The position numbers and the translations under genes were made by a program. A stretch of 64,000 nt of DNA from a phage: the NCBI GenBank assembly GCA_033648345.1, contig GCA_033648345.1_4121.1; one strand, given 5' to 3'. Each line of letters starts with the position of its first letter. Within the stretch, counting starts at the first letter, position 1. Below, one piece after another: positions 10,537-24,280 of the stretch. A model generated the notes under the pieces. That model was not told where the DNA came from and searched no databases. It saw only the letters and a list, made by a program, of their open reading frames with translations.

Positions 10537-10776
10537 ATGGCTAAATCAAAAATGTTCTTAGGTCACAAAAACAAAACTCATTGGAATGTAAGCCTTTGGA
10601 TTAATAACGATGAGTCATTGTACCGGTTGGCCCTGGACTTTATTGCCGCCAATACTAATCGCAATGATGCGGCCCGTCATATGATGTTATTTTTAGAACA
10701 GACTGGACAAGATAAAACACCGGACGGATTCAAATATAGCACTACTGCGATCCGTGCGGCGATGGTTGGAATGTAA
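10537..10776 (+). CDS. Hypothetical early protein; paralog of 12576..12815
   Basis: Shared GHKNKTxWNVSLWINN...TPDGFKYSTTAIRAAMVGM; SD AAGAGGA. Confidence 0.7.
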   Translation: MAKSKMFLGHKNKTHWNVSLWINNDESLYRLALDFIAANTNRNDAARHMMLFLEQTGQDKTPDGFKYSTTAIRAAMVGM

Positions 10777-10861
10777 TAGAATTTATTTAAAGTACTATCG
10801 CAAAAAATGATAGTACTTTATAATAGTGTTTTATTCATACACCAACGATAAGGGCAACAGC

Positions 10862-11128
10862 ATGAATATTAAGTATTTTGCGACGCGTGAACAAGCTCGG
10901 ATCGCCGCACGCCAGGACGGGGCAACGTTTAAAGATATGGGCGTACAATCGGAACGTGGTAAACGTTGGGCCATTATAAAGCGTAGTACCGCCAGATCAT
11001 TACAGTACTGGTTAGCGGCGTTAAAAAGTCCCGATAGTGTATCGCGTCGAGTGGTAGAAATAAAGCTCGACCGAAAGGGCAACCGCGTGACCGTGTACCG
11101 TACTAAAAAGATTGCAGTACTTGAATAA
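10862..11128 (+). CDS. Hypothetical early protein; paralog of 23885..24280
   Basis: Shared KYFATREQARIAARQDGATFKDMG and DRKGNRVTVY motifs; start moved to MNIKYF. Confidence 0.65.
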   Translation: MNIKYFATREQARIAARQDGATFKDMGVQSERGKRWAIIKRSTARSLQYWLAALKSPDSVSRRVVEIKLDRKGNRVTVYRTKKIAVLE

Positions 11129-11135
11129 AAAGTAC

Positions 11136-11163
11136 TTGCAAACTATGTTTAATGGCGTATAAT
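11136..11163 (+). promoter_or_regulatory. Class-I early promoter
   Basis: TTGCAA-16-TATAAT. Confidence 0.6.
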
Positions 11164-11215
11164 GTTTTACATCGAGAGCGGGAACACTTCCCGCCTATAA
11201 CCTGGAGTAATAAAA

Positions 11216-11446
11216 ATGACTAATATGTATATGACTGAAGTTAAAACCGTAAAAGATACTACCACGAATAAAACTACTTACTTACAGCGGATCTGCGGTG
11301 TATGGCAACGTATCAGCAAATCAAAGTACTTTAAATTAACATCATATGCAAACCGTTCGGATTCATTCAGTACTGAAATAAAAGGTAATAAAGTACACCA
11401 ATACGGCACTTATTATTATTATAGCCTGGACGCGATTGCAGTATAA
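11216..11446 (+). CDS. Hypothetical early protein (76 aa)
   Basis: ORF after promoter, hairpin and SD GGAGT. Confidence 0.6.
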   Translation: MTNMYMTEVKTVKDTTTNKTTYLQRICGVWQRISKSKYFKLTSYANRSDSFSTEIKGNKVHQYGTYYYYSLDAIAV

Positions 11447-11476
11447 GCAGTTTACAAATCTTTACAATTGCCGGTA

Positions 11477-11505
11477 TTGACTTATTTTGTCAGTACTGGC
11501 ATAAT
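11477..11505 (+). promoter_or_regulatory. Promoter of convergent pair (candidate small-RNA promoter)
   Basis: TTGACT-17-CATAAT; no ORF downstream, followed by the conserved CCCA-GGGTGC leader motif. Confidence 0.5.
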
Positions 11506-11620
11506 GTATTCATTGGCAGATAAGCCGTAGCCCATAGGGTGCGGGAGTGTATCTATAGAAAAAGTAGTTTATTACAGTTACAATTGTGCACCCGGTGGGT
11601 TAGCTGTTGTCATGGGGTAT

Positions 11621-11649
11621 ATTATGCCAGTACTTGATAATGCTGTCAA
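11621..11649 (-). promoter_or_regulatory. Convergent minus-strand promoter
   Basis: Reverse complement reads TTGACA-17-CATAAT and faces the promoter at 11477. Confidence 0.5.
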
Positions 11650-11695
11650 TACTTTTTTTTACTATTCAGTACTGAAAACTATTTTTAAAAAGTAC

Positions 11696-11723
11696 TTGCA
11701 AACTATGTTTAAAGGCGTATAAT
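11696..11723 (+). promoter_or_regulatory. Class-I early promoter (P1 of tandem pair)
   Basis: TTGCAA-16-TATAAT followed by structured leader ACATCAGGACGGGGAACG... Confidence 0.55.
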
Positions 11724-11813
11724 GTTTTACATCAGGACGGGGAACGAAATAAGTAACTCCCCGTTAAGTAGCCCAGGAGTAAGGCACACGAAAAACTCCC
11801 CTGATAAAATAGT

Positions 11814-11841
11814 TTGACAAATGTTTTTAAAAGCGTATAAT
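11814..11841 (+). promoter_or_regulatory. Promoter P2 of tandem pair
   Basis: TTGACA-16-TATAAT. Confidence 0.55.
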
Positions 11842-11873
11842 ACTTACATCAACTACTGAATGAGGGTTACAAA

Positions 11874-12485
11874 ATGAAAACTATCACTACTACTACTTTC
11901 GTTATGGATTTTTCTGAATTGAACGCAGAACAAAAAACGTCAGCTATCGAACTGGTTCGGGAACGTGAAAAAAACTCAAACGACAATTATTTTTCTGAAA
12001 GTGAAATTGAATACTATAAAGAAACAGTACTACCGGAATATGGCATTAATGACGCTGAAATACAATTCAGTGGTTTTTGGTCCCAGGGTGACGGTGCATC
12101 AATCAGTACTGACCACGTTGACGGTGTGAAGTTTTTACGCAAGGTAAGAGCATTAACTAAGTATCGCTCAATCCGTCACTTGCTGAATGAAGATGATTTG
12201 GCGATGAGTGTAAAGCGTTCTCATTCTTTGTACTTGCATGAGAATACTGTAAGCGGGTACATTGAATCGGCTTACACTGATTTAACCGCAAAACAAGAAA
12301 CGTTAGTTAATGAGCTTGAGGAACTACTCACTGAAACTATTCGTGAATTATCCCGCAAGTTGTACCGTGATTTAGAGAATGCATATGAGGATCAATTCAC
12401 TACTGAAAACATCGTATCACTGATTGAGGGTAACGAATATCAATTCAATGTTATTGATGGCGTAGTAGAATCAATCGAATATTAA
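11874..12485 (+). CDS. Hypothetical acidic early protein (203 aa)
   Basis: ORF with upstream tandem promoters; SD GAGGG. Confidence 0.7.
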   Translation: MKTITTTTFVMDFSELNAEQKTSAIELVREREKNSNDNYFSESEIEYYKETVLPEYGINDAEIQFSGFWSQGDGASISTDHVDGVKFLRKVRALTKYRSIRHLLNEDDLAMSVKRSHSLYLHENTVSGYIESAYTDLTAKQETLVNELEELLTETIRELSRKLYRDLENAYEDQFTTENIVSLIEGNEYQFNVIDGVVESIEY

Positions 12486-12497
12486 TTCAAAAAGTAC

Positions 12498-12525
12498 TTG
12501 CAAACTAAGTTTAAAAGCGTATAAT
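12498..12525 (+). promoter_or_regulatory. Class-I early promoter
   Basis: TTGCAA-16-TATAAT. Confidence 0.6.
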
Positions 12526-12575
12526 ACTTTATATCGAGGCGGGGAGTGGTTCCCCGCTCAAACGAGGATTTAAAA

Positions 12576-12815
12576 ATGGCTAGTACTAAAACTTATAACG
12601 GACACAAAAACAAAACTCAATGGAATGTAAGCCTTTGGATTAATAACGGTGAGTCATTGTATCGGCTTGCACAAAGTTGTATCGCACAAAGTAGAACTAA
12701 AGATATTGCAGCGGAATGCATGTACCGCAGATTAAAAGCCAACGGTACTACTACAACGCCGGACGGCTTTAAGTATAGCACTACTGCGATCCGTGCTGCA
12801 ATGGTTGGAATGTAA
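12576..12815 (+). CDS. Hypothetical early protein; paralog of 10537..10776
   Basis: Start moved to MASTKTYNGHK after hairpin GGCGGGGAGTGGTTCCCCGC. Confidence 0.7.
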   Translation: MASTKTYNGHKNKTQWNVSLWINNGESLYRLAQSCIAQSRTKDIAAECMYRRLKANGTTTTPDGFKYSTTAIRAAMVGM

Positions 12816-12873
12816 TATTCAGTACTGTAACAATGGCGGGGAATGGTTCCCGCCTTTATTGAGGGTTTATCTA

Positions 12874-13134
12874 ATGAGTAAAGTAATTAACTATACAGTA
12901 CTAAGCAAGTCATTGTCTATCAGTGAATGCACCGATGGTTTTTGGCTTTATGATGAAACGCGTGGAATGAATTTAGCTATGCGTGTAAAAACTGCTGAGG
13001 CGGCGTATCTTGAGGCACTGGAATACTACCAGGAACGTTTAACGGAAGTAGAAGAAGATTATAAAAGCCTCAAAGCGAAAGTAGATCATTTCGTCGGTCA
13101 ATTCATCGAGGAAGACGACGATAAACAATACTGA
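12874..13134 (+). CDS. Hypothetical early protein (86 aa)
   Basis: Start moved to MSKVINY after hairpin GGCGGGGAATGGTTCCCGCC and SD GAGGG. Confidence 0.6.
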   Translation: MSKVINYTVLSKSLSISECTDGFWLYDETRGMNLAMRVKTAEAAYLEALEYYQERLTEVEEDYKSLKAKVDHFVGQFIEEDDDKQY

Positions 13135-13222
13135 AAAAAAGTACTTGCAATTAGTTTTCAGTACTGTATAATAGTTTACATCAAGTGGAGAAATGGTTCT
13201 CCCTGGTAATGAGGAAAATAAA

Positions 13223-13444
13223 ATGGCTAATATCACTACTCTTTCCCAACTGGAAGCACTGGTTAAATCTATGCGGGAACATGCCGACAAAATCGGCGTA
13301 CAAGATCCAGCCGTTTGCTTCTGCGACGAATTGAATGATGATACCCTTGTAATAGCAGAAGTCCAGGACGTTTCTAACTATTCCTCGCGTTACACTGGCG
13401 GCGTAGCAAATAAAGGCGACTTCTGTTTATACCTTACAAAATAA
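13223..13444 (+). CDS. Hypothetical early protein (73 aa)
   Basis: Start moved to MANITT after hairpin and SD. Confidence 0.6.
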   Translation: MANITTLSQLEALVKSMREHADKIGVQDPAVCFCDELNDDTLVIAEVQDVSNYSSRYTGGVANKGDFCLYLTK

Positions 13445-13449
13445 CAACG

Positions 13450-13480
13450 CGGGGAGATAATAACTCCCCGTTACTTTTTC
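13450..13480 (+). terminator. Rho-independent terminator
   Basis: CGGGGAGATAATAACTCCCCG followed by TTACTTTTT. Confidence 0.6.
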
Positions 13481-13550
13481 AGTACTGAATCATTTAATAG
13501 ACGGATCTATGCACCCGGTGGGTTAGTGACTGTTTCGTCTTGATGTAGTA

Positions 13551-13579
13551 ATTATGCCAGTACTGGATGCAGTTGTCAA
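13551..13579 (-). promoter_or_regulatory. Minus-strand promoter with conserved leader (candidate small RNA)
   Basis: Reverse complement TTGACA-17-CATAAT followed by ACATCAAGACG...CCCACCGGGTGCAT; no ORF. Confidence 0.45.
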
Positions 13580-13612
13580 CAACTATTTTTCAAATACTTT
13601 TTATTAAAATAC

Positions 13613-13640
13613 TTGCAATTAGTTTTTAAACGCGTATAAT
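13613..13640 (+). promoter_or_regulatory. Class-I early promoter
   Basis: TTGCAA-16-TATAAT. Confidence 0.55.
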
Positions 13641-13687
13641 GTTTTGCATAGGGGGAGCGGTTCCCCTGGTAACTAAGGAATAATAAA

Positions 13688-13924
13688 ATGCTTGAACAAA
13701 TCAAATCAACGTCTGCGAATGTAACGGGAACGGTAGCACACTTTACTAGTGATGAATCGCGGGGCGTTCCCTATTGTGCTGTACATGTAAACACTGATGG
13801 CAACTACTGGTTTACGGTTTACGGATCATATTCATTTGGACGGCCTGGGCATCAAAAAATTCTGGATAAAGTACAACCAACGGGTAAAAATATCACTGCC
13901 GAAATGTTTTATAAAAAATCATAA
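13688..13924 (+). CDS. Hypothetical early protein (78 aa)
   Basis: Hairpin GGGGGAGCGGTTCCCC then SD AAGGAA. Confidence 0.65.
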   Translation: MLEQIKSTSANVTGTVAHFTSDESRGVPYCAVHVNTDGNYWFTVYGSYSFGRPGHQKILDKVQPTGKNITAEMFYKKS

Positions 13925-13929
13925 AGTAC

Positions 13930-13957
13930 TTGATAATAGTTTTTAGTACTGTATAAT
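13930..13957 (+). promoter_or_regulatory. Early promoter
   Basis: TTGATA-16-TATAAT. Confidence 0.5.
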
Positions 13958-14008
13958 ATTTTACATCGCAAGGGGGAGCGGTTCCCCCTAGTAACTAAGG
14001 ATAATCAA

Positions 14009-14308
14009 ATGAAAATTGCAATCATCGCCCTGGCTTTATCTGTTTCCTCTTTCGCTGTTAATGCGTCATTAGATGTAAGTAGTGAAAAATTCATTCAGTG
14101 CACTGTTGCAATGACCGATGAAAGAACTGGCGAGATTGTATTAAAGGATTTAGAGATCCAGCCGGAAGCATTTAAAAACGGCCCGTTCCATGAAGAAGAC
14201 GAAAACGGTAGCACAACAATTTATTATGATGCCAGTACTAAACGCGGTTCGGTCACTGTAATGGATACTGAGAAAGTAACTCATACTGGCGTTATTAATT
14301 GCCGTTGA
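14009..14308 (+). CDS. Small secreted/periplasmic protein
   Basis: N-terminal signal-peptide-like MKIAIIALALSVSSFAVNA. Confidence 0.65.
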   Translation: MKIAIIALALSVSSFAVNASLDVSSEKFIQCTVAMTDERTGEIVLKDLEIQPEAFKNGPFHEEDENGSTTIYYDASTKRGSVTVMDTEKVTHTGVINCR

Positions 14309-14329
14309 TAGATACTACGGGGTAACATC

Positions 14330-14560
14330 ATGACTAAGCGAATTGTTTTACTTAACGAAAGCAGTACTACACAACTACTTAACGCCGTGCATTATGATAT
14401 TGAAACGAGCGTTAATCTTATCAGTACTGTAGTACTGTTGGACACTGGAAAGGTCGCCAATGATAAAGCGATTGCAGGTATATTAACGGATCTTGAGCCT
14501 GGTAGCAGTGCACCAATAACGTTAAATGGTAAAGTGTTTAATATTTTACTCACTGATTAA
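14330..14560 (+). CDS. Hypothetical protein (76 aa)
   Basis: ORF closely following upstream gene. Confidence 0.55.
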   Translation: MTKRIVLLNESSTTQLLNAVHYDIETSVNLISTVVLLDTGKVANDKAIAGILTDLEPGSSAPITLNGKVFNILLTD

Positions 14561-14566
14561 GTACAT

Positions 14567-14594
14567 AGCCCACCTGGTGGGCTTTTTTGTTTTT
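14567..14594 (+). terminator. Rho-independent terminator
   Basis: AGCCCACC-TGGTGGGCT followed by TTTTTTGTTTTTG. Confidence 0.75.
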
Positions 14595-14642
14595 GTAGTA
14601 TCGTAGTACTGAGATACTTTGAAAATAGTTTTAAAAAAGTAG

Positions 14643-14670
14643 TTGACATTACCGCAGAAAAGCGTAGAAT
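14643..14670 (+). promoter_or_regulatory. Early promoter
   Basis: TTGACA-16-TAGAAT followed by conserved leader ACATCAAGACGGGGAGC. Confidence 0.5.
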
Positions 14671-14793
14671 GTATTACATCAAGACGGGGAGCACTAAGTA
14701 GACCGCCAGTAAGTCGAACGAAAAACTGGACACGTCGAGAAAACTTTGATACACTAATAAACGTAAACTAAACTTTAATTGAGGATTTATAAA

Positions 14794-15276
14794 ATGGCTA
14801 ATGTAAAATCATTCATCAAAGCACTGGTAGCAAATGAAACTAACGTCGCGGCAGAGATCCTGGCTGAACTGGATAACGATACCATGAAAGCGGTACGCAA
14901 TAATTTTAACATCGCGTACAGTACTGCGAAAGAACTACAAGCAAATAAAGCAGCAGAGATCGAGGCAGCAAAGGCGGCCCGTGAAGCAGAACTACAAGCA
15001 ACAATTGAAAGTATTCAGGCGGCAGTAGTTGGATTGGATCTGGAAGTAGTTACAGAGATGGCACAAAAAGCCCTGGCGAAAAAGTACGGGGAAGACAAGC
15101 CAGAAGTAAAAGCCAAAAAATGGATTCAAGAACGTGTAGCGGTAGTACTTGATAATGGGGAAGAATATCTGATTCCGGTGCGTGGTAACTGCATTGCTGT
15201 AGTACTGGATGCGATTAACTCCAGCGGTATGACTCGCGAGGAATGGATCGAAGCTCATCGCAAAGTGGAAGCATAA
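14794..15276 (+). CDS. Hypothetical protein with Ala/Glu-rich helical segment (160 aa)
   Basis: Start moved to MANVKSF after SD GAGGA. Confidence 0.65.
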   Translation: MANVKSFIKALVANETNVAAEILAELDNDTMKAVRNNFNIAYSTAKELQANKAAEIEAAKAAREAELQATIESIQAAVVGLDLEVVTEMAQKALAKKYGEDKPEVKAKKWIQERVAVVLDNGEEYLIPVRGNCIAVVLDAINSSGMTREEWIEAHRKVEA

Positions 15277-15297
15277 CAATTAAAGTACTGAATCACT

Positions 15298-15325
15298 AGC
15301 CCACTGTATAAGTGGGCTTTTTTGT
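15298..15325 (+). terminator. Rho-independent terminator
   Basis: AGCCCAC-TGTATAA-GTGGGCT followed by TTTTTTG. Confidence 0.75.
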
Positions 15326-15477
15326 GTTTATCGTTTACCAGGCCACCAGCACCGCCTAGAATCGATTCTAACGCATTAAACTGATTATCTGATGCATCGC
15401 CCTAGCTGGTGGAGTTAAGGCCGTTAGAATGCGATTTAGAGCGTTTAAAGTATTTTGCAAAAAGTAATAAAAAGTAC

Positions 15478-15505
15478 TTGCACGATTCAGAGATTAGCGT
15501 ATAAT
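15478..15505 (+). promoter_or_regulatory. Class-I early promoter
   Basis: TTGCAC-16-TATAAT. Confidence 0.5.
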
Positions 15506-15550
15506 GTTTTACATCAAGGCGAAACACCTTAACTAACTGAGGATATAAAG

Positions 15551-15703
15551 ATGAATACTTATGAACTGGATTGTTTCACTATGCAAGTAATGTTAGTATG
15601 CAGTAAAAAAGAATGGTCATCAAAGGAATTTAAAGCAGTTATTGCGTGTGCAAAACACGGCAAGACTATCAATGAAACGGCATCAATCATTGATAAACTT
15701 TAA
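15551..15703 (+). CDS. Small hypothetical protein (50 aa, absent from ORF track)
   Basis: Manual translation MNTYELDCFTMQ... with SD GAGGA. Confidence 0.45.
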   Translation: MNTYELDCFTMQVMLVCSKKEWSSKEFKAVIACAKHGKTINETASIIDKL

Positions 15704-15711
15704 AAAATAGT

Positions 15712-15740
15712 TTGACAATAGTTTTAAGTACTGACATAAT
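15712..15740 (+). promoter_or_regulatory. Class-II early promoter
   Basis: TTGACA-17-CATAAT with AGTACTG before the -10. Confidence 0.6.
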
Positions 15741-15773
15741 ACATACATCAACTACTGAATAGGAATCAAAACA

Positions 15774-16001: not shown

Positions 16002-16008
16002 AAAAGTA

Positions 16009-18510: not shown

Positions 18511-18520
18511 ATGAAAAAAG

Positions 18521-19066: not shown

Positions 19067-19079
19067 TATAAAAAATAGT

Positions 19080-19107
19080 TTGACAATAGATTATAGTACT
19101 GTATAAT
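19080..19107 (+). promoter_or_regulatory. Class-II early promoter
   Basis: TTGACA-16-TATAAT. Confidence 0.6.
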
Positions 19108-19157
19108 TAATTACATCAAGGGGAGAATAGTTCTCCCCAACTAAGAGGAAAAAGAAA

Positions 19158-19340
19158 ATGGCTGAATTAATCGCTCGGAATACAATTGCAGGCGTTGAAG
19201 ATGTAACATTATCATATGATTCAGATAAACAAGTTTACGTCGTTCGTTATGGTCTGATTGGTGTTAACGTTGATTATATTGATGAAGCCTTTGAAAAATA
19301 CTTTGAATTTATTAATATGGCTTATAATGATTATCGTTAA
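19158..19340 (+). CDS. Hypothetical early protein (60 aa)
   Basis: Promoter, hairpin GGGGAGAATAGTTCTCCCC, SD AAGAGGA. Confidence 0.65.
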   Translation: MAELIARNTIAGVEDVTLSYDSDKQVYVVRYGLIGVNVDYIDEAFEKYFEFINMAYNDYR

Positions 19341-19348
19341 AAAATAGT

Positions 19349-19376
19349 TTGACAATAGATTATAGTACTGTATAAT
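19349..19376 (+). promoter_or_regulatory. Class-II early promoter
   Basis: TTGACA-16-TATAAT. Confidence 0.6.
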
Positions 19377-19430
19377 AGTTTACATCAAGGGGAGAAAAAC
19401 TTCTCCCCACTAACAGAGAGAGAAAACAAA

Positions 19431-19643
19431 ATGGCTAATATCTGCACTGTACTGAAAAATGCAAAACAAGTTTTATTTTCTGATCACGATCATTTAAACA
19501 AGGATATTACGGGCGTTCGGAATATCAAAGATGTAAAAAGTGTTATGGGTATCTATTGCAATATGAAACGTGTCGGCACGTTCGGCGATAAAGTACTATA
19601 CCAGGCAGGGGATTATAACTTCACATTAACCATCATCAATTAA
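19431..19643 (+). CDS. Hypothetical early protein (70 aa)
   Basis: Promoter, hairpin GGGGAGAAAAACTTCTCCCC, SD. Confidence 0.65.
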   Translation: MANICTVLKNAKQVLFSDHDHLNKDITGVRNIKDVKSVMGIYCNMKRVGTFGDKVLYQAGDYNFTLTIIN

Positions 19644-19733
19644 AATATATTACCAGTACTATTGACAACGTTTGATAGTACTGTATAATAAGTTTTATAA
19701 ACAGTAGTTAACTTAACCTAAGAGAGAAACAAA

Positions 19734-19877
19734 ATGATCGCACTGGATTCATTCATCGACGCAGTACTGGCAAAAACTGGCGAGGATCTGACCGCAGAAC
19801 AATACGCGATGATCGAGCAATGTCAGCAAAACGGTAAATCGGTGAAAGATACTGTTAAGATTATCCGCAAGATGTAA
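19734..19877 (+). CDS. Small hypothetical protein (47 aa, absent from ORF track)
   Basis: Manual translation MIALDSFIDAVLAKTGEDL... after class-II promoter near 19663. Confidence 0.5.
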   Translation: MIALDSFIDAVLAKTGEDLTAEQYAMIEQCQQNGKSVKDTVKIIRKM

Positions 19878-19883
19878 TATTAT

Positions 19884-19912
19884 AGCCCACTGGTTAACGC
19901 TGGTGGGCTTTA
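19884..19912 (+). terminator. Terminator-like hairpin
   Basis: AGCCCAC-12 nt-GTGGGCT followed by TTTAATCATTT. Confidence 0.5.
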
Positions 19913-19976
19913 ATCATTTACCCTATACAATGCCAGTACTCAACCGTTTATCTCGTTAGAATGCGTTACAGGACGT

Positions 19977-20180
19977 TTGACAATGATTAGCATGAAATCA
20001 GTACAAAAACAAATAGAAACATTATCAAAAATTAAACGTAAACAATACTCCTTAGAATATACAATCAATGGTAACTATCATCTAATGAAAGAAAATAATT
20101 TTATAGTCATTGATGAATCATTGCAAATTATTAGTATAGTACTGAAAGCATTAATCAATGACAGAAAAAAATTAAAATAA
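19977..20180 (+). CDS. Hypothetical AT-rich ORF (67 aa)
   Basis: Track ORF; weak SD, so low confidence. Confidence 0.35.
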   Translation: MTMISMKSVQKQIETLSKIKRKQYSLEYTINGNYHLMKENNFIVIDESLQIISIVLKALINDRKKLK

Positions 20181-20183
20181 TTG

Positions 20184-20212
20184 TTGACATACAATGCCAG
20201 TACTGGCATAAT
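20184..20212 (+). promoter_or_regulatory. Promoter with conserved leader (candidate small RNA)
   Basis: TTGACA-17-CATAAT followed by ACATCAAGACGAGAACGTCACTAACCCATAGGGTGCACAAATGTAACTAT; no ORF for ~300 bp. Confidence 0.5.
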
Positions 20213-20274
20213 ACTTACATCAAGACGAGAACGTCACTAACCCATAGGGTGCACAAATGTAACTATATAATATC

Positions 20275-20347
20275 GATCAATAAATGATCAAAAAAGTACT
20301 GGATCAATTTAGCATAAGGAGTATAATTCTGATCAATTCTTGATCAA
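20275..20347. repeat. Cluster of five GATCAA sites including palindrome TTGATCAA
   Basis: GATCAA at 20275, 20286, 20302, 20331, 20342 upstream of the TraR-like gene. Confidence 0.7.
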
Positions 20348-20508
20348 AGGCAATATACGCAGTTGAATTTATATAGACAGTACAAAGGCGTTACTATCCG
20401 TGGTAATGCTGGTGGATATGTAGTATCATATGGTTTGAATAAGATTAGCACTAGTAGTATTATTGTAGCATTACAGTACTATAGTATTTTTATAATGAGG
20501 TTAAAATA

Positions 20509-20766
20509 ATGGCTGTTGGATTCGCGAAGGACGGGGCCGAGCAAGACGAGATTAACGCAGTGATTCAGGCCGCTGTAAACCACGCTAGAAAGCAAATTAA
20601 CGCACAAAGAGAATCACTGGTACATTGCCTCGACTGCGGCGATAAAATCCCTGAGAATCGACGCCAGGCCGTTATAGGGTGCATGTATTGTATTACTTGC
20701 CAGGAGGATCATGATAGTACTTTTAAAAGAGATCCGCGTAATTGTTGGCATAGATCTATGAGATAA
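20509..20766 (+). CDS. TraR/DksA-family C4 zinc-finger protein
   Basis: RKQINA...HCLDCGDKIPENRR...CMYCITCQ fits the TraR pattern C-x2-CG-x-IPE-x-RR ... C-x2-CQ. Confidence 0.8.
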   Translation: MAVGFAKDGAEQDEINAVIQAAVNHARKQINAQRESLVHCLDCGDKIPENRRQAVIGCMYCITCQEDHDSTFKRDPRNCWHRSMR

Positions 20767-20773
20767 AAAGTAA

Positions 20774-20801
20774 TTGACAGTACTGAAAGATAGTGTATAA
20801 T
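20774..20801 (+). promoter_or_regulatory. Early promoter with extended -10
   Basis: TTGACA-16-TGTATAAT. Confidence 0.6.
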
Positions 20802-20830
20802 GTTTTATATCTTAACTGAGGATTGAAATC

Positions 20831-21187
20831 ATGGGTATTCAACACATCACGCGTACTACTGACAATGGCGAGATCACTGGTTATCAGGTACAGGGCAAAG
20901 TAGCACAATTGCAGTACTGGTTTGTTAAACGTGGAATCATTGCACCGGATCTTGATTATGACCGTGTAGCGTTTATTGATTCTCTTTATGTTGATCCTGA
21001 TAGTCGGGGCAATGGTGAAGGTAACGAATTAATGAATGCCTTTATTGATGCCGCCGATGATTCAGATTGTATCATCTTAGAATGCGATACGGGAGAAGAT
21101 AACGCCTTTAATCTTAAAGAATGGTACGAAGGCTTCGGATTCGAGGTATTGATAGATAGTGAATATCCTATCATGATTTTATCATAG
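20831..21187 (+). CDS. Putative GNAT-like acetyltransferase (weak)
   Basis: VDPDSRGNGEGNELMNAF resembles the GNAT acetyl-CoA-binding motif; 118 aa. Confidence 0.45.
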   Translation: MGIQHITRTTDNGEITGYQVQGKVAQLQYWFVKRGIIAPDLDYDRVAFIDSLYVDPDSRGNGEGNELMNAFIDAADDSDCIILECDTGEDNAFNLKEWYEGFGFEVLIDSEYPIMILS

Positions 21188-21190
21188 TAC

Positions 21191-21219
21191 TTGCATTTAG
21201 TTTTCAGTACTGTTATAGT
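21191..21219 (+). promoter_or_regulatory. Early promoter
   Basis: TTGCAT-17-TATAGT; hairpin GGGGAAACATCTTCCCC follows. Confidence 0.5.
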
Positions 21220-21266
21220 ACTTGCATCAAGGGGAAACATCTTCCCCTACTAAGAGGAAATAAAAA

Positions 21267-21455
21267 ATGGAAAACTTATCAAGTATTTTAGTACAAGATG
21301 ATTTCGGTAATCCTGGAAGTGCTATCATTGTTCGGGGCAATAAAGCAACGTTTGTTATTGCTGGTGGACCCGTACAGCGTAGCATTAAAAATAATGCTGT
21401 TACCATTAATAATGTACGCTATCGCTTAGATAAAGAATTAATTCATAAACTGTAA
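21267..21455 (+). CDS. Hypothetical early protein (62 aa)
   Basis: ORF with SD AAGAGGAAA. Confidence 0.6.
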   Translation: MENLSSILVQDDFGNPGSAIIVRGNKATFVIAGGPVQRSIKNNAVTINNVRYRLDKELIHKL

Positions 21456-21482
21456 TATTAATTTAATAGAGGATAACAATAA

Positions 21483-21806
21483 ATGTACATTCATACTACT
21501 ATCACAAAGGAAGTCCGTTGCCAGTTCGAAAGTATTCCGGGCGTATGTTTCATCACTGGTACGTTTTCCCCTGGTGATCGTGATAATCCAGTACTGTTAC
21601 AATTACGCCATCCATCATGGGATAAAGCATTTGATCTACCGTTGAATGAATTCGCAACTACTGCTGAAAAGTACATTAAAAATATTCGCGAGAATGATCG
21701 ACTATTCATTAATGCTTTTAGTGATTCCGCGTTAAGCGAGATCCACGGCGTATTGGTTGCAATCATGGAATCAATGCAGAAAACTAAATTCAAACAAGGT
21801 GAATAA
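21483..21806 (+). CDS. Hypothetical protein (107 aa)
   Basis: ORF with SD AGAGGA. Confidence 0.6.
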   Translation: MYIHTTITKEVRCQFESIPGVCFITGTFSPGDRDNPVLLQLRHPSWDKAFDLPLNEFATTAEKYIKNIRENDRLFINAFSDSALSEIHGVLVAIMESMQKTKFKQGE

Positions 21807-21812
21807 AAACTA

Positions 21813-21840
21813 TTGACAATGCAATCCAGTACTGTATAAT
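21813..21840 (+). promoter_or_regulatory. Class-II early promoter
   Basis: TTGACA-16-TATAAT; hairpin GGGGAGAAATGATTCTCCCC follows. Confidence 0.6.
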
Positions 21841-21889
21841 AGTTTACATGAAGGGGAGAAATGATTCTCCCCACTAAGAGGAAAGAAAA

Positions 21890-22102
21890 ATGCAAGGTCA
21901 ACTAATCGTTCGTAAATGGTCTGATACTAACGAAAAACCGTGGGATGTACAATACATCGCCCCAAATGGTGAATCCAGATATCAACCAGGTGTAACGCAT
22001 AGTACTGAGCAATTCGCCGCCGCTCATCGCGAACGTCTGTTACAATCAATGCAGCAAGGTTCCGGTGAAAAATTCATTCAGGATCATTGGCTGAAAGATT
22101 AA
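21890..22102 (+). CDS. Hypothetical early protein (70 aa)
   Basis: ORF with SD AAGAGGAAA. Confidence 0.65.
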   Translation: MQGQLIVRKWSDTNEKPWDVQYIAPNGESRYQPGVTHSTEQFAAAHRERLLQSMQQGSGEKFIQDHWLKD

Positions 22103-22108
22103 AAAGTA

Positions 22109-22137
22109 CTTGCACTGTACTGAATAAAGTGTATAAT
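22109..22137 (+). promoter_or_regulatory. Class-I early promoter
   Basis: TTGCAC-17-TATAAT. Confidence 0.55.
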
Positions 22138-22188
22138 GTTTTATATCGGAAGGGGAATAGTTCCCCTCCGAACAAAGAGGAAAGTATA

Positions 22189-22362
22189 ATGGTCCAGGTA
22201 GAATTAACAGTACTGAAAGATCTGTTTTATCGGATTGGTACTACTGGCGAATATCCGAAGGGTGATAATGCAAAACTTTACGTATCACTCGACTTATGGC
22301 AACGCGAACAATTAGCAACGGCCTGGCGTAAAGGCAAAGCAGATCGAGAGGTGAAAGCATGA
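22189..22362 (+). CDS. Hypothetical early protein (57 aa)
   Basis: Start moved to MVQVEL after hairpin GGAAGGGGAATAGTTCCCCTCC and SD. Confidence 0.55.
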   Translation: MVQVELTVLKDLFYRIGTTGEYPKGDNAKLYVSLDLWQREQLATAWRKGKADREVKA

Positions 22363-22508
22363 AAGAATTCTTATTTGAAGTAGTGTTTCAAGGTGTCGGC
22401 AATAACCAACTGATTCGATCAAGTGGTTATAATGTTAACCAGGCATGGAATAACATTAAACAAATGTACCCGAACGCTATCACATATCGCAACCCGAAAG
22501 AAGTTTAA
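22359..22508 (+). CDS. Small hypothetical protein (49 aa, absent from ORF track)
   Basis: ATGA-coupled ORF MKEFLFEVVFQGVGNN... Confidence 0.45.
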   Translation: MKEFLFEVVFQGVGNNQLIRSSGYNVNQAWNNIKQMYPNAITYRNPKEV

Positions 22509-22518
22509 AAATAATTGA

Positions 22519-22555
22519 AAAAGGGATTGACTCCGGTCAGTCCCTTTGCTATTAT
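22519..22555 (+). terminator. Terminator hairpin with embedded promoter-like TTGACT
   Basis: AAGGGATTGAC-TCCG-GTCAGTCCCTT followed by TGCTATTATAT. Confidence 0.7.
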
Positions 22556-22655
22556 ATACGCATAGAAACAAATTAGCCCACCGGGTGCATAAATGTATCT
22601 ATTGTTTGCTGGTGGCTAGTACTATCAAGTACTGAAAACTATTTTTAAAAAGTAC

Positions 22656-22683
22656 TTGCAAAGTATCACGATAAGCGTATAAT
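22656..22683 (+). promoter_or_regulatory. Class-I promoter P1 with structured leader
   Basis: TTGCAA-16-TATAAT followed by ACATCAGGACGGGGAACGAAACAAGTAACCCCG... Confidence 0.55.
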
Positions 22684-22771
22684 GTTTTACATCAGGACGG
22701 GGAACGAAACAAGTAACCCCGTTAAGTAGTCCAGGAGTAAGACATACGAAAAACTCCCCTGATAAAATAGT

Positions 22772-22799
22772 TTGACAATAGAAAGTAAACGAGTATAAT
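22772..22799 (+). promoter_or_regulatory. Promoter P2
   Basis: TTGACA-16-TATAAT. Confidence 0.55.
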
Positions 22800-22832
22800 A
22801 CTTACATCAACCACTGATAAGGAAACATTAAA

Positions 22833-23108
22833 ATGCGGATTCTACTGACAGCTAACGAAATCGAACAAGTACTGACTACTAACCTGGAAGACTGGAAACG
22901 TGAAGCAGATATCCAGGCGGTTCAATGGCTTAACGATAAGTTAACGCCGGATGACTTAAGCAAGATTGTAGATCCTCAATTCTACGAAGATATTCACGAC
23001 ACCGCGTTAAGCGTCGAGGATGTACTTGATAAGCACTACATTGATACTGATTTACATGTTTACGGTCGTAAAAACTTTATCACTATTCACGACATTTACA
23101 ATACTTAA
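22833..23108 (+). CDS. Hypothetical acidic early protein (91 aa)
   Basis: ORF after tandem promoters; SD AAGGAAA. Confidence 0.7.
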   Translation: MRILLTANEIEQVLTTNLEDWKREADIQAVQWLNDKLTPDDLSKIVDPQFYEDIHDTALSVEDVLDKHYIDTDLHVYGRKNFITIHDIYNT

Positions 23109-23111
23109 GTA

Positions 23112-23139
23112 TTGACAAAGTATCTTAGTACTGTATAAT
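23112..23139 (+). promoter_or_regulatory. Class-II promoter (duplicated cassette, copy 1)
   Basis: TTGACA-16-TGTATAAT; whole ~90-bp cassette repeated at 23377..23468. Confidence 0.6.
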
Positions 23140-23196
23140 AGTTTACATCAAGTGAGGGGAAACGGTTCCCCTCCTAACAAAGAGAGAGAAATAAAA

Positions 23197-23379
23197 ATGG
23201 CTAAGTGCACTATCTGCAAGAAAGAAATAGTATTAGTTCCAAGTGCCCGTGAACGTGCCGCTCGGTTTGGTGGCAAAGCGTCAGACTATACAAAAATGTT
23301 TACTGCCCATACAGCTTGCCAGGTAGCAAAACGTTCACAAGAAAGCGTAGAATTAATGCGTAAACTTTCCAAAAAATAA
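23197..23379 (+). CDS. Small CxxC protein (60 aa)
   Basis: Start moved to MAKCTICKKE; second Cys pair near the C-terminus. Confidence 0.6.
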   Translation: MAKCTICKKEIVLVPSARERAARFGGKASDYTKMFTAHTACQVAKRSQESVELMRKLSKK

Positions 23380-23381
23380 GT

Positions 23382-23409
23382 ATTGACAAAGTATCTTAGT
23401 ACTGTATAA
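23382..23409 (+). promoter_or_regulatory. Class-II promoter (duplicated cassette, copy 2)
   Basis: Identical to the promoter at 23112. Confidence 0.6.
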
Positions 23410-23465
23410 TAGTTTACATCAAGTGAGGGGAAACGGTTCCCCTCCTAACAGAGAGAGAAATAAAA

Positions 23466-23789
23466 ATGGCTATGATCCTTACCCAGAAAGTGGAATTGAA
23501 AATTGTAACCTCCTTTGACATTAAAGTTAATCGGTGGACTGATTCACACGGCAATACTTACCACTCTTGCTACGTGTCTGCGTTAATTGGCGACCGCTGG
23601 GAAGACCTGGGACACGAAACCTTTACATACGGTTACGGTACGCAAGGCGAATACACTGGTTTGGAGATCATTAAAGAAACCGTTATAGGTTTCAACCCGA
23701 AAGAAAAAGTTATTCACCGCATCGAAAAAGAGATTAACAAAGAAATAACAGTTCGCTACTACGATGTAAAACGTAAGAAAGACATGTAA
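23466..23789 (+). CDS. Hypothetical early protein; paralog of 16606..16950
   Basis: Shared GNTY...YGYG...DVKRKKD motifs. Confidence 0.7.
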   Translation: MAMILTQKVELKIVTSFDIKVNRWTDSHGNTYHSCYVSALIGDRWEDLGHETFTYGYGTQGEYTGLEIIKETVIGFNPKEKVIHRIEKEINKEITVRYYDVKRKKDM

Positions 23790-23811
23790 TAGAATCCATT
23801 TAAAGTACTAT

Positions 23812-23840
23812 TTGACATTGCCCAGATAGTACTTTATAAT
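23812..23840 (+). promoter_or_regulatory. Class-II early promoter
   Basis: TTGACA-17-TATAAT. Confidence 0.6.
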
Positions 23841-23884
23841 AGACTCTAACTTGTAGTACTAACTCAACTAATAGGATGTATACC

Positions 23885-24280
23885 ATGATTACTAAATTCT
23901 ACGCTACCCGTGAAGCTGCCCGTATTGTTGCACGCGAGGAAGGAGCAGCATTTAAAGACATGGGAACGACAGCACCGAAAGGTCAACGCTGGGCCGTACA
24001 GTTCAAAGAAATCTCTGATATTGTGAATTCACCTGAGCCAGTACTGACAGCAGCAGAACTAAAACGAGCGGATATGCTGGCGGCAATACTTGACGCACAA
24101 GATGAGTTTATCGCTGATTCTGATATCAAAGTACAGGTAAACCACACCGCATGGACTCACGCGGATCACCTGGCAAACCTTAAGCGTCCAAGTGAACTGA
24201 TTCGCAACCAGAAAGAGATCCGACATGATCGTAAGGGTAATCGTGTAACAGTATACAGTAAACGCCGCCAGGTTATCTAA
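23885..24280 (+). CDS. Hypothetical protein; paralog of 10862..11128
   Basis: Start moved to MITKFYATREAARIVAREEG. Confidence 0.65.
   Translation: MITKFYATREAARIVAREEGAAFKDMGTTAPKGQRWAVQFKEISDIVNSPEPVLTAAELKRADMLAAILDAQDEFIADSDIKVQVNHTAWTHADHLANLKRPSELIRNQKEIRHDRKGNRVTVYSKRRQVI

What the first reader, a model, noticed from the sequence alone, without database searches (positions are those of the whole stretch)
10537..24280. Dispersed paralog pairs within the early block
Three pairs of non-adjacent paralogs exist: 10537/12576 (GHKNKTxWNVSLWINN...TPDGFKYSTTAIRAAMVGM), 10862/23885 (KYFATREQARIAARQDG...DRKGNRVTVY, the second with a ~45-aa insertion), and 16606/23466 (GNTY..YGYG..DVKRKKD). Dispersed rather than tandem duplicates in a compact genome suggest selection for dosage or for diverged specificity.
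Basis: seen in the sequence. Interest (0 to 1): 0.4.

Follow-up and report, generated by a model that had tools for sequence, protein, structure and literature searches.

The report
Shuffled early-gene cassettes, jumbo coliphage
The three pairs of related small genes are real, but they lie in the ~21-kb terminal repeat of a ~350-kb E. coli jumbo phage, where single-gene promoter-hairpin cassettes are swapped within the genome and with other coliphage groups, so they look like products of cassette exchange and old duplication rather than dosage copies in a compact genome.

Summary
All three paralog pairs are confirmed: A 10537/12576 at 65% identity, B 10862/23885 at 35%, C 16606/23466 at 31%. 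Alignment scores lie 17-55 SD above shuffles, and these are the only paralogs in 10-30 kb. The window is an Asteriusvirus jumbo coliphage, not a compact genome. The block matches the ~21-kb direct terminal repeat of close relatives. Nearly every gene there has its own sigma70-like promoter, GC hairpin and SD cassette, resembling the PeSLs of T4-type phages. The pairs have different origins. B1/B2 is an old duplication fixed in the genus, and B1 has lost 45 aa. A2 is an optional cassette, absent or replaced in G17, 121Q and A4. Its ORF shares a 213-nt perfectly identical run with a Phapecoctavirus gene whose flanks are unrelated. C1 is an allele swapped in at a locus where other Asteriusviruses carry a 33%-identical version, and its nearest relatives outside the few Asteriusviruses that share it (A4, SP27) are Stephanstirmvirinae/Vequintavirinae genes. 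Synonymous sites are saturated or nearly so, which argues against dosage. Discrete conserved "types" of family A fit diverged specificity. Function is unknown for all three families (DUF7249, phrog_8127, phrog_6246), and an early accessory role is inferred. Moderately interesting: a new member of a known kind.

The parts
8317..29725 (+). Equivalent of the ~21-kb direct terminal repeat (DTR) of Asteriusvirus. It is a block of about 44 small + strand genes, most with their own promoter cassette.
   Evidence: Collinear at 95-97% identity with positions 1-21525 of vB_Ec-M-J, annotated there as Direct Terminal Repeats. A DTR of 20,993 bp in fEgEco12 was confirmed by restriction digests (PMC13070987). 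25 of 26 strict cassette motifs in the window lie in 8704-30227, all on the + strand.
10537..10776 (+). A1, 79 aa, DUF7249 / phrog_871. This is the 'core' copy of family A.
   Evidence: Present at 95-99% aa identity in EcMJ, G17, 121Q and A4. 96% aa and 85% DNA identity to Phapecoctavirus tuntematon.
12576..12815 (+). A2, 79 aa, DUF7249. This is an optional cassette of a second allelic type.
   Evidence: Absent from G17, 121Q and A4, and present in EcMJ. The ORF alone is 90-91% identical in DNA to Phapecoctavirus 3A1 and 87% to Vequintavirinae A7_1.
10862..11128 (+). B1, 88 aa, phrog_8127. This is the short form, with the central 45 aa deleted.
   Evidence: Present in all four Asteriusvirus loci at 89-100%.
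23885..24280 (+). B2, 131 aa, phrog_8127. This is the long form, which is the ancestral architecture.
   Evidence: Two copies per DTR in every Asteriusvirus, one copy in RaK2/K64-1/Muenster-type relatives.
16606..16950 (+). C1, 114 aa, phrog_6246. This allele is shared with Stephanstirmvirinae and Vequintavirinae.
   Evidence: At least 95% identity in only about 7 records (A4 100%, SP27 97%) but 80-86% in about 118 Phapecoctavirus/Justusliebigvirus records. EcMJ, G17 and 121Q carry a 33%-identical allele at the same locus.
23466..23789 (+). C2, 107 aa, phrog_6246. This is the conserved resident copy, directly upstream of B2.
   Evidence: 96-98% identical in EcMJ, G17, 121Q and A4.
10452..10536 (+). 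Promoter-hairpin-SD cassette of A1 (AAAGTACTTGCAA-N16-TATAAT-GTTTTACATC-GC hairpin-SD).
   Evidence: Repeat families D1, D2 and D11. Promoter scan. Hairpin -14.2 kcal/mol, z = -3.6.
12491..12575 (+). Promoter-hairpin-SD cassette of A2. It is 76-79% identical to the A1 cassette and continuous with the ORF homology.
   Evidence: D11 pairs 10447-10631 with 12486-12670 at 79%. blastn gives 332 nt at 76%. Hairpin -15.6 kcal/mol.
12835..12854 (+). Second copy of the GC hairpin (GGCGGGGAATGGTTCCCGCC) immediately after A2. It marks the right-hand junction of the A2 insertion/deletion.
   Evidence: Alignment of five genomes at this locus; terminator-like scan.
10777..10861 (+). Family-specific upstream region of B1 (TAATAGAATnnATTTAAAGTACTAT...GATAGTACTTTATAATAG, no hairpin), starting at the stop codon of A1.
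   Evidence: Sequence read. DNA homology of 10771-10941 with 23784-23964 at 67%.
23790..23884 (+). Matching upstream region of B2, with a consensus TTGACA-N17-TATAAT promoter, starting at the stop codon of C2.
16522..16605 (+). Promoter cassette of C1 (TTGACA-N17-CATAAT with TG). Its first 68 nt are 100% identical to 16228-16295 upstream of gene 16312.
   Evidence: Repeat family D9.
23366..23465 (+). Promoter-hairpin cassette of C2, 92-94% identical to the cassette at 23095-23195 in front of gene 23197.
   Evidence: Repeat family D10.

Best explanation
The six genes belong to three small families of early accessory proteins in the region that matches the ~21-kb direct terminal repeat of an Asteriusvirus jumbo coliphage. 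The region is built from autonomous one-gene cassettes. Each cassette has a near-consensus sigma70 promoter, a 7-9 bp GC hairpin at the start of the transcript, a Shine-Dalgarno site and a short ORF. These repeated regulatory cassettes provide homology for recombination within the genome and with co-infecting coliphages of other groups (Stephanstirmvirinae, Vequintavirinae) that use the same cassette architecture. The highly conserved coding ends of the families provide further homology. Recombination inserts, deletes and replaces ORFs with gene-level precision, which scatters family members along the block. The three pairs therefore differ in history. (i) B1/B2 is an ancient duplication of promoter plus ORF, fixed in the genus, and B1 later lost 45 central residues. 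(ii) A1 is core, while A2 is an optional cassette of a second allelic 'type' that circulates among at least three phage groups. (iii) C2 is core, while C1 is one of two very different alleles that replace each other at one locus. Shown here: the homology, the distribution, the breakpoints and the promoter and hairpin sequence features. Inferred: early expression by host RNA polymerase, recombination as the mechanism, and a function in host takeover or counter-defence in which different types have different targets.
For: Identity and context. The window shows mosaic 92-96% identity to Asteriusvirus genomes. The block is collinear with the annotated DTR of vB_Ec-M-J, and DTRs of about 21 kb have been shown experimentally or with PhageTerm (PMC13070987; PMC11895373).

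Cassettes. A 68-95 nt repeat occurs at least 22 times in 8-30 kb. There are 101 promoter-like sites against 58 expected, including 10 perfect TTGACA-N16/17-TATAAT sites. The strict motif is confined to the DTR and to the + strand. All 23 hairpins tested fold at -9 to -16 kcal/mol, with mean z = -3.8, and their stem sequences differ.

A2 locus. Here the ORF is flanked by two hairpin copies. A4 has a single promoter plus hairpin and no ORF. G17 and 121Q carry unrelated ORFs between the same elements.

C1 locus. The allele swap is bounded by the shared promoter and first codons (ATGGCTAA) and by the conserved 3' coding end GATGTTAAACGCAAAAAAGATCTTTAA, which is also present in Phapecoctavirus.

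Breakpoints overall. 19 of 45 homology breakpoints against four relatives fall in cassette intervals that cover 16.5% of the block (p = 4e-5). Among the intergenic breakpoints the count is 15 of 29 against 30% expected (p = 0.011).

Exchange between groups. A1 is 96% identical to tuntematon, A2 is 92% identical to 3A1, and a third type occurs in ukendt. Vequintavirinae A7_1 carries both types. EcMJ A2 and Phapecoctavirus 3A1 share 213 consecutive identical nucleotides while their flanks are unrelated. Intragenic A1/A2 mosaics exist (P0057, 3A1). 11 of 44 DTR genes have homologues within 10 kb of A7_1, and several other loci show allele replacement.

Age. dS is saturated for B and C, and is 0.95 for A.

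Family B. There are two copies in every Asteriusvirus and one in RaK2-like relatives, and all outgroups have the long form.

Early role of family A. In Autographiviridae phage Tola the homologue lies between the left terminal repeat and the phage RNA polymerase gene.
Against: No expression data were available, so 'early' rests on promoter consensus and position. The function of all three families is unknown. There are no significant matches in PDB by sequence or fold, none in NCBIfam, and BFVD returns only uncharacterised homologues.

Breakpoints in intergenic cassettes are also what selection against disrupted ORFs would leave, so the enrichment is consistent with cassette-mediated recombination but does not prove it.

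Some junctions have no flanking homology. The 3' end of the A2/3A1 identity stops at the stop codon, so illegitimate or microhomology-based events must also occur.

The direction of transfer between phage groups is not resolved. Only four Asteriusvirus loci and five short loci from other groups were compared base by base. DTR boundaries in the window's own phage are inferred by homology.
Confidence: 0.72

Rival explanations
1. All three pairs arose by duplication inside the Asteriusvirus genome. They are kept because the copies have sub- or neo-functionalised, with no role for exchange with other phages.
For: B1 and B2 fit this well. Both are present in every Asteriusvirus examined, only one copy occurs in RaK2-like relatives, and their family-specific promoter was duplicated together with the ORF. 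The homology between A1 and A2 includes the promoter cassette (76-79% over about 330 nt), as expected for duplication of a whole cassette.
Against: A2 is missing or replaced in G17, 121Q, slurp01 and A4. A2 and A1 each have closer relatives in Phapecoctavirus (92% and 96%) than each other (65%). EcMJ A2 shares 213 identical nucleotides with a Phapecoctavirus gene. C1 is 80-86% identical to Stephanstirmvirinae genes but only 31-33% identical to either Asteriusvirus C allele.
Confidence: 0.2
2. The duplicates are kept for gene dosage, meaning more of the same protein early in infection.
For: Strong consensus promoters in front of each copy. Location in a terminal repeat that itself doubles the copy number.
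Against: Protein identity is only 31-65%. Synonymous sites are saturated for B and C, and dS is 0.95 for A. B1 lacks a third of B2. The variable middle of A differs at more than half of its non-synonymous sites between copies while being conserved within each type. The second A copy is dispensable in natural relatives.
Confidence: 0.04
3. The three families are parts of one functional module, which is why they travel as neighbours. The 'pairs' would be two partly decayed copies of an ancestral C-A-B segment, with A1-B1 left at 10.5 kb and C2-B2 at 23.5 kb, plus later xenologous additions (A2, C1).
For: B1 directly follows A1 and B2 directly follows C2, and the shared B upstream region begins at the preceding stop codon. 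In Phapecoctavirus, phi92 and relatives the C gene is directly followed by the A gene. The chance that both B genes directly follow an A or C gene among 44 genes is 0.0065, a post-hoc figure.
Against: No genome with a C-A-B triplet was found. Family B was not detected in any Stephanstirmvirinae or Vequintavirinae record among the 58 records matched. The adjacency test was devised after seeing the data. There is no evidence of physical or functional interaction.
Confidence: 0.2
4. The similarities are chance matches between short, compositionally biased ORFs, or artefacts of ORF calling.
For: None beyond the small size of the proteins.
Against: z = 17-55 against shuffles, with cross-family controls at noise level. 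Each pair belongs to one PHROG family at E = 1e-26 to 1e-43. There are hundreds of homologues with invariant motifs. The AlphaFold models are confident, with pLDDT 87.6 and 86.6.
Confidence: 0.01

Closest known systems
PeSL (promoter-early stem-loop) regulatory cassettes and modular shuffling in the hyperplastic regions of T4-type phages (Arbiol et al. 2010, PMC2839356; Comeau et al. 2014, PMC4122927)
   Same: Repeated intergenic cassettes made of a strong sigma70-like promoter, a G/C-rich stem-loop, an SD and a start codon. They are concentrated in a region of small non-essential ORFans. Insertions, deletions and replacements between close relatives are bounded by the cassettes. One published PeSL subclass has the stem-loop just downstream of the -10, as here. 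A second repeat family in the window (18503-18650, 22507-22601, 25785-25879, 28236-28330) has the -35 inside a hairpin, like other PeSL subclasses.
   Different: The phage lineage differs (Asteriusvirus jumbo phage, not Tevenvirinae relatives). There is no sequence homology to T4-type PeSLs. The cassettes fill a 21-kb terminal repeat rather than internal hyperplastic regions. The hairpins lack a U-tract, so they probably act in the 5' UTR rather than as terminators. The same architecture, and in places the same hairpin sequence, is shared with Stephanstirmvirinae and Vequintavirinae, and ORFs are exchanged across these groups. Promoter and terminator activity and mini-circles were shown experimentally for PeSLs and not here.
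Pre-early genes in the long terminal repeat of phage T5 (first-step-transfer DNA); this comparison rests on my own knowledge
   Same: A large direct terminal repeat filled with small genes that have host-type promoters and mostly unknown or host-takeover functions, so each gene is present twice per virion DNA.
   Different: No homology to T5 genes was seen. Two-step DNA entry is not known for Asteriusvirus. Here the repeat is about 21 kb with about 44 genes, and it was not shown that this end enters first.
Pfam DUF7249 (PF23907) / phrog_871; phrog_8127; phrog_6246
   Same: A1 and A2 score above the Pfam gathering threshold for DUF7249 (42 and 51 bits against 27). All six proteins match their PHROG over the full length.
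   Different: These families carry no functional annotation, so membership names the proteins but does not explain them.
Phage 'morons' (autonomous promoter-gene-terminator units in lambdoid prophages); this comparison rests on my own knowledge
   Same: Single accessory genes with their own promoter, variably present between otherwise collinear relatives.
   Different: Morons are typically expressed from prophages and differ in base composition from their surroundings. Here the units make up the entire early block of a virulent phage and share one regulatory design.

Membership tests
PeSL-type regulatory cassette (T4-type phages) | Sigma70-like early promoter (-35 and -10 near consensus) with an A/T-rich upstream tract | tested here: met
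   Sequence level only. There are 10 perfect TTGACA-N16/17-TATAAT sites and many TTGCAA-N16-TATAAT sites on the + strand. The AAAAAGTACTTG upstream tract is conserved. Activity was not measured.
PeSL-type regulatory cassette (T4-type phages) | A stable stem-loop forms part of the repeated unit | tested here: met
   23 of 23 cassettes fold into 7-9 bp GC hairpins of -8.9 to -16.4 kcal/mol, with mean z = -3.8 against shuffles. The stems differ in sequence but keep their pairing. RNAalifold on the unregistered alignment was uninformative.
PeSL-type regulatory cassette (T4-type phages) | Concentrated in a hyperplastic region of small, variable ORFs | tested here: met
   25 of 26 strict motifs lie in 8704-30227. 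Gene content there is mosaic between relatives.
PeSL-type regulatory cassette (T4-type phages) | Indels and replacements between close relatives are bounded by the cassettes | tested here: met
   The A2 locus is bounded by promoter and hairpin copies. 19 of 45 breakpoints fall in cassettes that cover 16.5% of the block, p = 4e-5. At the C1 locus one boundary lies in the cassette and first codons, and the other in the conserved 3' coding end.
PeSL-type regulatory cassette (T4-type phages) | The stem-loop acts as a transcription terminator or attenuator; the cassettes form encapsidated mini-circles | not testable with these tools
   This needs reporter assays and PCR on phage DNA. The hairpins here lack a following U-run, which argues against classic intrinsic termination.
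PeSL-type regulatory cassette (T4-type phages) | Sequence homology to the RB49/phi1 PeSLs, or membership of the T4 superfamily | not tested
   The host phage is an Asteriusvirus. The resemblance is one of architecture, and no alignment to T4-type PeSLs was made.
Pfam DUF7249 (family A) | Score above the curated gathering threshold over most of the model | tested here: met
   A1 scores 42.1 bits and A2 50.9 bits against a cut-off of 27, covering model positions 2-77 of 93. The precomputed Pfam hit is PF23907 for all listed homologues.
T5-like pre-early terminal-repeat block | Genes lie within a long direct terminal repeat | tested here: met
   By homology only. Window 8317-29725 is collinear with the annotated DTR (1-21525) of vB_Ec-M-J. 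The DTR has been verified in fEgEco12.
T5-like pre-early terminal-repeat block | Two-step DNA entry, with the repeat expressed before the rest of the genome enters | not testable with these tools
   No data.
RNase H-like fold (considered for family C) | Significant structural match and a conserved acidic catalytic set | tested here: not met
   The best PDB Foldseek match has E = 0.05 and TM 0.24-0.39, although RNase H-like folds dominate the weak hits. BFVD gives only uncharacterised homologues at E < 1e-3. No DEDD-like pattern is evident among the invariant residues.

The most novel reading that the evidence does not exclude
The ~21-kb terminal repeat of Asteriusvirus jumbo phages may act as an open exchange platform. 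A common promoter-hairpin cassette design, shared with unrelated large coliphages (Stephanstirmvirinae, Vequintavirinae), would let single early ORFs and even sub-gene 'type' segments move between phage subfamilies very recently, as the 213 identical nucleotides suggest. In this reading families A, B and C form a linked early toolkit. Their discrete allelic types (A1, A2, ukendt-type; C1, C1', C2) would each neutralise a different host target or defence variant, so carrying two types would broaden the range of hosts the phage can take over.
Probability: 0.3. Interest if true: 0.6.

Novelty: new member of a known kind. Interest (0 to 1): 0.35.

Why it matters
The result replaces a vague idea of 'paralogs for dosage' with a concrete and testable picture. 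The early genes of a jumbo phage would be interchangeable one-gene cassettes drawn from a pool shared with other coliphage subfamilies. If the mechanism holds, PeSL-type modular shuffling extends beyond T4-type phages to jumbo-phage terminal repeats and to exchange between subfamilies. It also identifies DUF7249 as a good candidate for functional study. DUF7249 is a widespread family whose members, in the phages where context was checked, sit among early genes, and it has invariant ends and a type-variable middle. Which early cassettes a phage carries may matter for choosing phages for therapy, because such genes often decide whether infection succeeds in a given strain.

Tried and rejected
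- Rfam at gathering thresholds on the whole window gave 0 hits, and ARAGORN found 0 tRNA or tmRNA genes. The repeated elements are therefore not known RNA families.
- A profile search of family A against PDB sequences found nothing (best E = 0.98).
- Foldseek of the family A model (pLDDT 87.6, four short helices) against PDB found nothing (best E = 5.8).
- Foldseek of the family C model against PDB gave only weak RNase H-like hits (E at least 0.05, TM about 0.3). I do not rely on these. Against BFVD it returned only uncharacterised homologues.
- NCBIfam gave only sub-threshold noise for all six proteins. Apart from DUF7249, Pfam also gave only noise.
- RNAalifold on the 23 cassettes aligned from the -10 was uninformative because loop lengths differ and the stems are out of register. 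I replaced it with folding each element separately.
- A literature search for DUF7249 returned nothing. Papers on Asteriusvirus genomes mention the DTR but not promoters, cassettes or paralogs. The rV5 paper lists sigma70-type promoters but no cassette shuffling.
- Whole-pair dN/dS for B and C cannot be computed because synonymous sites are saturated.
- I considered and rejected the idea that B2 gained an insertion, because the outgroups show that B1 lost the segment.

Full report
OBSERVATION. BLASTP gives 51/79 identities with no gaps for A1 (10537-10776) against A2 (12576-12815), E = 3e-36. It gives 44/124 identities with a single 45-residue gap for B1 (10862-11128) against B2 (23885-24280), E = 1e-19. 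It gives 34/109 identities for C1 (16606-16950) against C2 (23466-23789), E = 4e-11. Against 1000 shuffles the local alignment scores lie 54.5, 25.3 and 16.8 standard deviations above the mean, while cross-family comparisons sit at the noise level. Each pair belongs to one PHROG family: phrog_871 (which is also Pfam DUF7249), phrog_8127 and phrog_6246. An all-against-all search of every ORF in the window finds no other paralogs between 10 and 30 kb.

WHAT THE WINDOW IS. The 15 kb around the finding matches Asteriusvirus jumbo coliphages (G17, 121Q, PBECO4, vB_Ec-M-J and others) at 92-96% identity. No relative covers more than 64% of it, and every match is broken into many pieces. These genomes are 348-386 kb, so 'compact genome' is wrong. 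The same window also holds large tandem paralog arrays at 3-8, 30-37 and 45-55 kb. In vB_Ec-M-J the first 21,525 bp are annotated as the direct terminal repeat (DTR). Window 8317-29725 is collinear with that stretch. A DTR of 20,993 bp was confirmed by restriction mapping in fEgEco12, and one of 20,668 bp was predicted in Sharanji. Genomes deposited with both repeats show four copies of families A and B, and those deposited without show two.

ANATOMY OF THE BLOCK. A 68-95 nt intergenic element is repeated at least 22 times. Its form is AAAGTACTTGCAA (or TTGACA), N16, TATAAT, GTTTTACATC, a GC hairpin, an SD and the ATG. The promoter scan finds 101 sigma70-like sites where 58 are expected, ten of them perfect consensus, and almost all lie on the + strand directly upstream of ORFs. 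A strict version of the motif occurs 26 times in the window, and 25 of those are in 8704-30227, all on the + strand. Each of 23 elements folds into a 7-9 bp hairpin of -9 to -16 kcal/mol (mean z = -3.8). The stem sequences differ between elements but pairing is kept. The hairpin follows the -10 by about ten bases and has no U-tract. It is therefore most likely the 5' end of the mRNA, acting as a stabiliser, processing site or attenuator; this is an inference. A1, A2 and C2 have this cassette. C1 has a hairpin-less variant whose 68-nt core is 100% identical to the one in front of the neighbouring gene 16312. B1 and B2 share a third, family-specific upstream region that begins at the stop codon of the preceding gene.

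HISTORY OF EACH PAIR.

Family B. Both copies occur in every Asteriusvirus examined, at 85-100% identity. The more distant jumbo relatives (RaK2, K64-1, Muenster, Munch, Hallingskeid) have one copy, and none was found outside this lineage. All outgroup proteins have the long architecture, so B1 lost 45 central residues. Synonymous sites are saturated. This is an old duplication of promoter plus ORF that is now fixed.

Family A (DUF7249). This is a large phage family of 340 clusters, with an invariant GHKN..WNVSLWINNDE.LY block, an invariant TPDG.KYS..IRAAMVGM end and a variable middle. A1 is present in all Asteriusviruses. A2 is absent from 121Q, slurp01, G17 and A4.

A base-level alignment of the A2 locus shows the following:
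- In the window and in vB_Ec-M-J, the A2 ORF lies between two copies of the GC hairpin.
- A4 has a single promoter plus hairpin and no ORF.
- G17 and 121Q have unrelated ORFs between the same elements.

A1 and A2 are closer to genes of other phage groups than to each other:
- A1 is 96% identical to Phapecoctavirus tuntematon, A2 is 92% identical to Phapecoctavirus 3A1, and ukendt carries a third type. Each of these phages has one copy.
- Vequintavirinae A7_1 has both types.
- The DNA similarity to these phages is confined to the ORF.
- The A2 gene of vB_Ec-M-J and the gene of Phapecoctavirus 3A1 share 213 consecutive identical nucleotides, from codon 10 to the stop codon. The 100 nt on either side are unrelated, and the first nine codons of 3A1 are of the A1 type.
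- Other intragenic mosaics exist, such as P0057.

Within a type the middle segment is under purifying selection (in the more divergent comparisons pN 0.00-0.12 against pS 0.17-0.70; the closest pairs are uninformative). Between types it differs at 38-56% of non-synonymous sites. The last 19 codons show no amino-acid change between A1 and A2 despite pS of 0.45.

Family C. C2 is conserved at 96-98% in all four relatives. The locus at 16.6 kb holds either C1 (the window, A4, SP27) or a very different allele that is 33% identical to C1 and 39% to C2 (121Q gp282, G17, vB_Ec-M-J). Outside those few Asteriusviruses, C1's nearest relatives are about 118 Phapecoctavirus and Justusliebigvirus genes (phi92 gp231) at 80-86%. 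The swap is bounded on the left by the shared promoter, UTR and first codons. It is bounded on the right by the conserved coding end GATGTTAAACGCAAAAAAGATCTTTAA (DVKRKKDL), a sequence that is also nearly identical in Phapecoctavirus.

GENERALITY. The pairs are not special within the block. 11 of 44 DTR genes have homologues within a single 10-kb stretch of Vequintavirinae A7_1. Several other loci (19158, 19431, 17630, 24927) show the same allele-replacement pattern. The Stephanstirmvirinae and Vequintavirinae loci use the same promoter, TACAT, GC hairpin and SD design, in places with the same hairpin sequence. Of 45 distinct homology breakpoints between the window and four relatives, 19 fall in cassette intervals that cover 16.5% of the block (p = 4e-5). 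Among the intergenic breakpoints, 15 of 29 fall in cassettes that make up 30% of intergenic DNA (p = 0.011). This enrichment is what cassette-mediated recombination predicts. Selection against broken ORFs contributes to it as well, and some junctions show no flanking homology.

MECHANISM (best explanation, confidence about 0.7). The block is a set of autonomous one-gene early cassettes. Recombination between the repeated regulatory elements, and between the conserved ends of family members, inserts, deletes and replaces ORFs. It acts within the genome and during co-infection with other large coliphages. Family members therefore end up dispersed. This is the behaviour described for PeSL cassettes in the hyperplastic regions of T4-type phages, including a subclass with the stem-loop just after the -10. 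In the paper library searched, I found no description of such cassettes in Asteriusvirus or its exchange partners. Early expression and the recombination mechanism are inferences from sequence.

FUNCTION. Function is unknown for all three families. The family A model (pLDDT 87.6) is a small four-helix domain with no PDB match. The family C model (pLDDT 86.6) has a beta-beta-beta-alpha-(beta)-alpha-beta topology. It shows only weak, non-significant resemblance to RNase H-like folds. There were no hits in PDB sequences or NCBIfam. Context supports an early role for family A. In the podophage matches it lies within the first ~2.5 kb of the record, and in Autographiviridae phage Tola it sits between the terminal repeat and the phage RNA polymerase gene. 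I commit to the following reading: these are early accessory proteins for host takeover or counter-defence, and their discrete types differ in target. I rate this at roughly 0.5 and mark it as inference.

A LINK BETWEEN THE FAMILIES. B1 directly follows A1, and B2 directly follows C2. In Stephanstirmvirinae the C gene is directly followed by the A gene. The chance that both B genes follow an A or C gene among 44 genes is 0.0065, but this test was devised after seeing the data. An ancestral C-A-B segment that was duplicated and then differentially reduced would explain this. No such triplet was found, and family B was not detected in Stephanstirmvirinae or Vequintavirinae.

VERDICT. What is there is an ordinary but clear example of modular cassette evolution. 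It is a new member of the PeSL-type kind in a jumbo-phage terminal repeat, with unusually direct evidence of recent ORF-level exchange between phage subfamilies. Interest 0.35.

Noticed in passing
window, whole; densest in 8268-9927 and 8317-29725: The palindrome CAGTACTG occurs 64 times against 0.66 expected. AGTACT occurs 139 times in the DTR equivalent against about 7 expected, and it is also 8-20 times over-represented in the rest of the window. In the cassettes it sits at two fixed positions, 7-8 nt and 27 nt upstream of the -10, but about 100 copies lie elsewhere, including inside ORFs. The Phapecoctavirus and Vequintavirinae versions of the cassette lack it at those positions. It could be an operator for a regulator of early promoters or another DNA-binding site; this is unexplained.
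   Followed up: partly
window 8317-10024: The first ~1.7 kb of the DTR equivalent has no convincing ORF. It holds 11 CAGTACTG copies, several promoter-like sites and short repeats. It probably corresponds to the physical left end of the chromosome.
   Followed up: no
window 18503-18650, 22507-22601, 25785-25879, 28236-28330 (plus motif copies at 9577, 11528, 20238): A second repeat family. It has a 12-bp-stem hairpin, AAAGGGATTGACTCCGGTCAGTCCCTTT, that contains a -35 (TTGACT) and is followed by TATTAT, then a conserved TAGCCCAnnGGGTGCnnAGTGTATCTA motif. It resembles the PeSL subclass in which the stem-loop overlaps the -35. There was no Rfam match.
   Followed up: partly
window 16228-16295 and 16522-16589: Two 68-nt promoter segments are 100% identical, 294 bp apart, and flank gene 16312-16524. 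G17 lacks exactly this unit (16318-16590). The gene and both flanks are 87% identical in DNA to Vequintavirinae A7_1, where the gene sits directly upstream of that phage's A2-type gene.
   Followed up: partly
window 30318-36835: About 30 head-to-tail, often overlapping ORFs of 65-90 aa form one large paralog family immediately after the DTR equivalent, with no promoter cassettes between them. A similar array of 59-81 aa ORFs lies at 3191-7973.
   Followed up: no
window 44987-54784: Several further multi-copy families of 100-185 aa proteins are arranged partly in tandem and partly dispersed, for example 44987/45364/45717/51304 and 46245/46712/47155/47621/53068/54302.
   Followed up: no
window 478-1644 and 1698-2882, minus strand: Two adjacent paralogous genes of about 390 aa, 27% identical over 159 aa. 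By position relative to the 3-8 kb ORF array they probably correspond to the tandem genes annotated as RCC1-like 'regulator of chromosome condensation' in 121Q (gp247/248); they were not aligned to those genes.
   Followed up: no
window 19158-19340, 19431-19643, 17630-17839, 24927-25169: Other DTR loci show the same allele-replacement pattern as C1. For example, gene 19158 is only 39% identical to the gene at that locus in four Asteriusviruses but 65% identical to a Vequintavirinae A7_1 gene. Gene 19431 is 93% identical in 121Q and A4, 69% in EcMJ and G17, and 90% in Phapecoctavirus tuntematon.
   Followed up: partly
phage records matched: Several records labelled 'Campylobacter phage' (B15, A150, A140, A145; about 140-150 kb) and one labelled 'Pseudomonas phage PsgM04F' carry A and C genes 80-86% identical to the coliphage versions. 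They look like Phapecoctavirus- or Vequintavirus-like coliphages with doubtful host labels.
   Followed up: no
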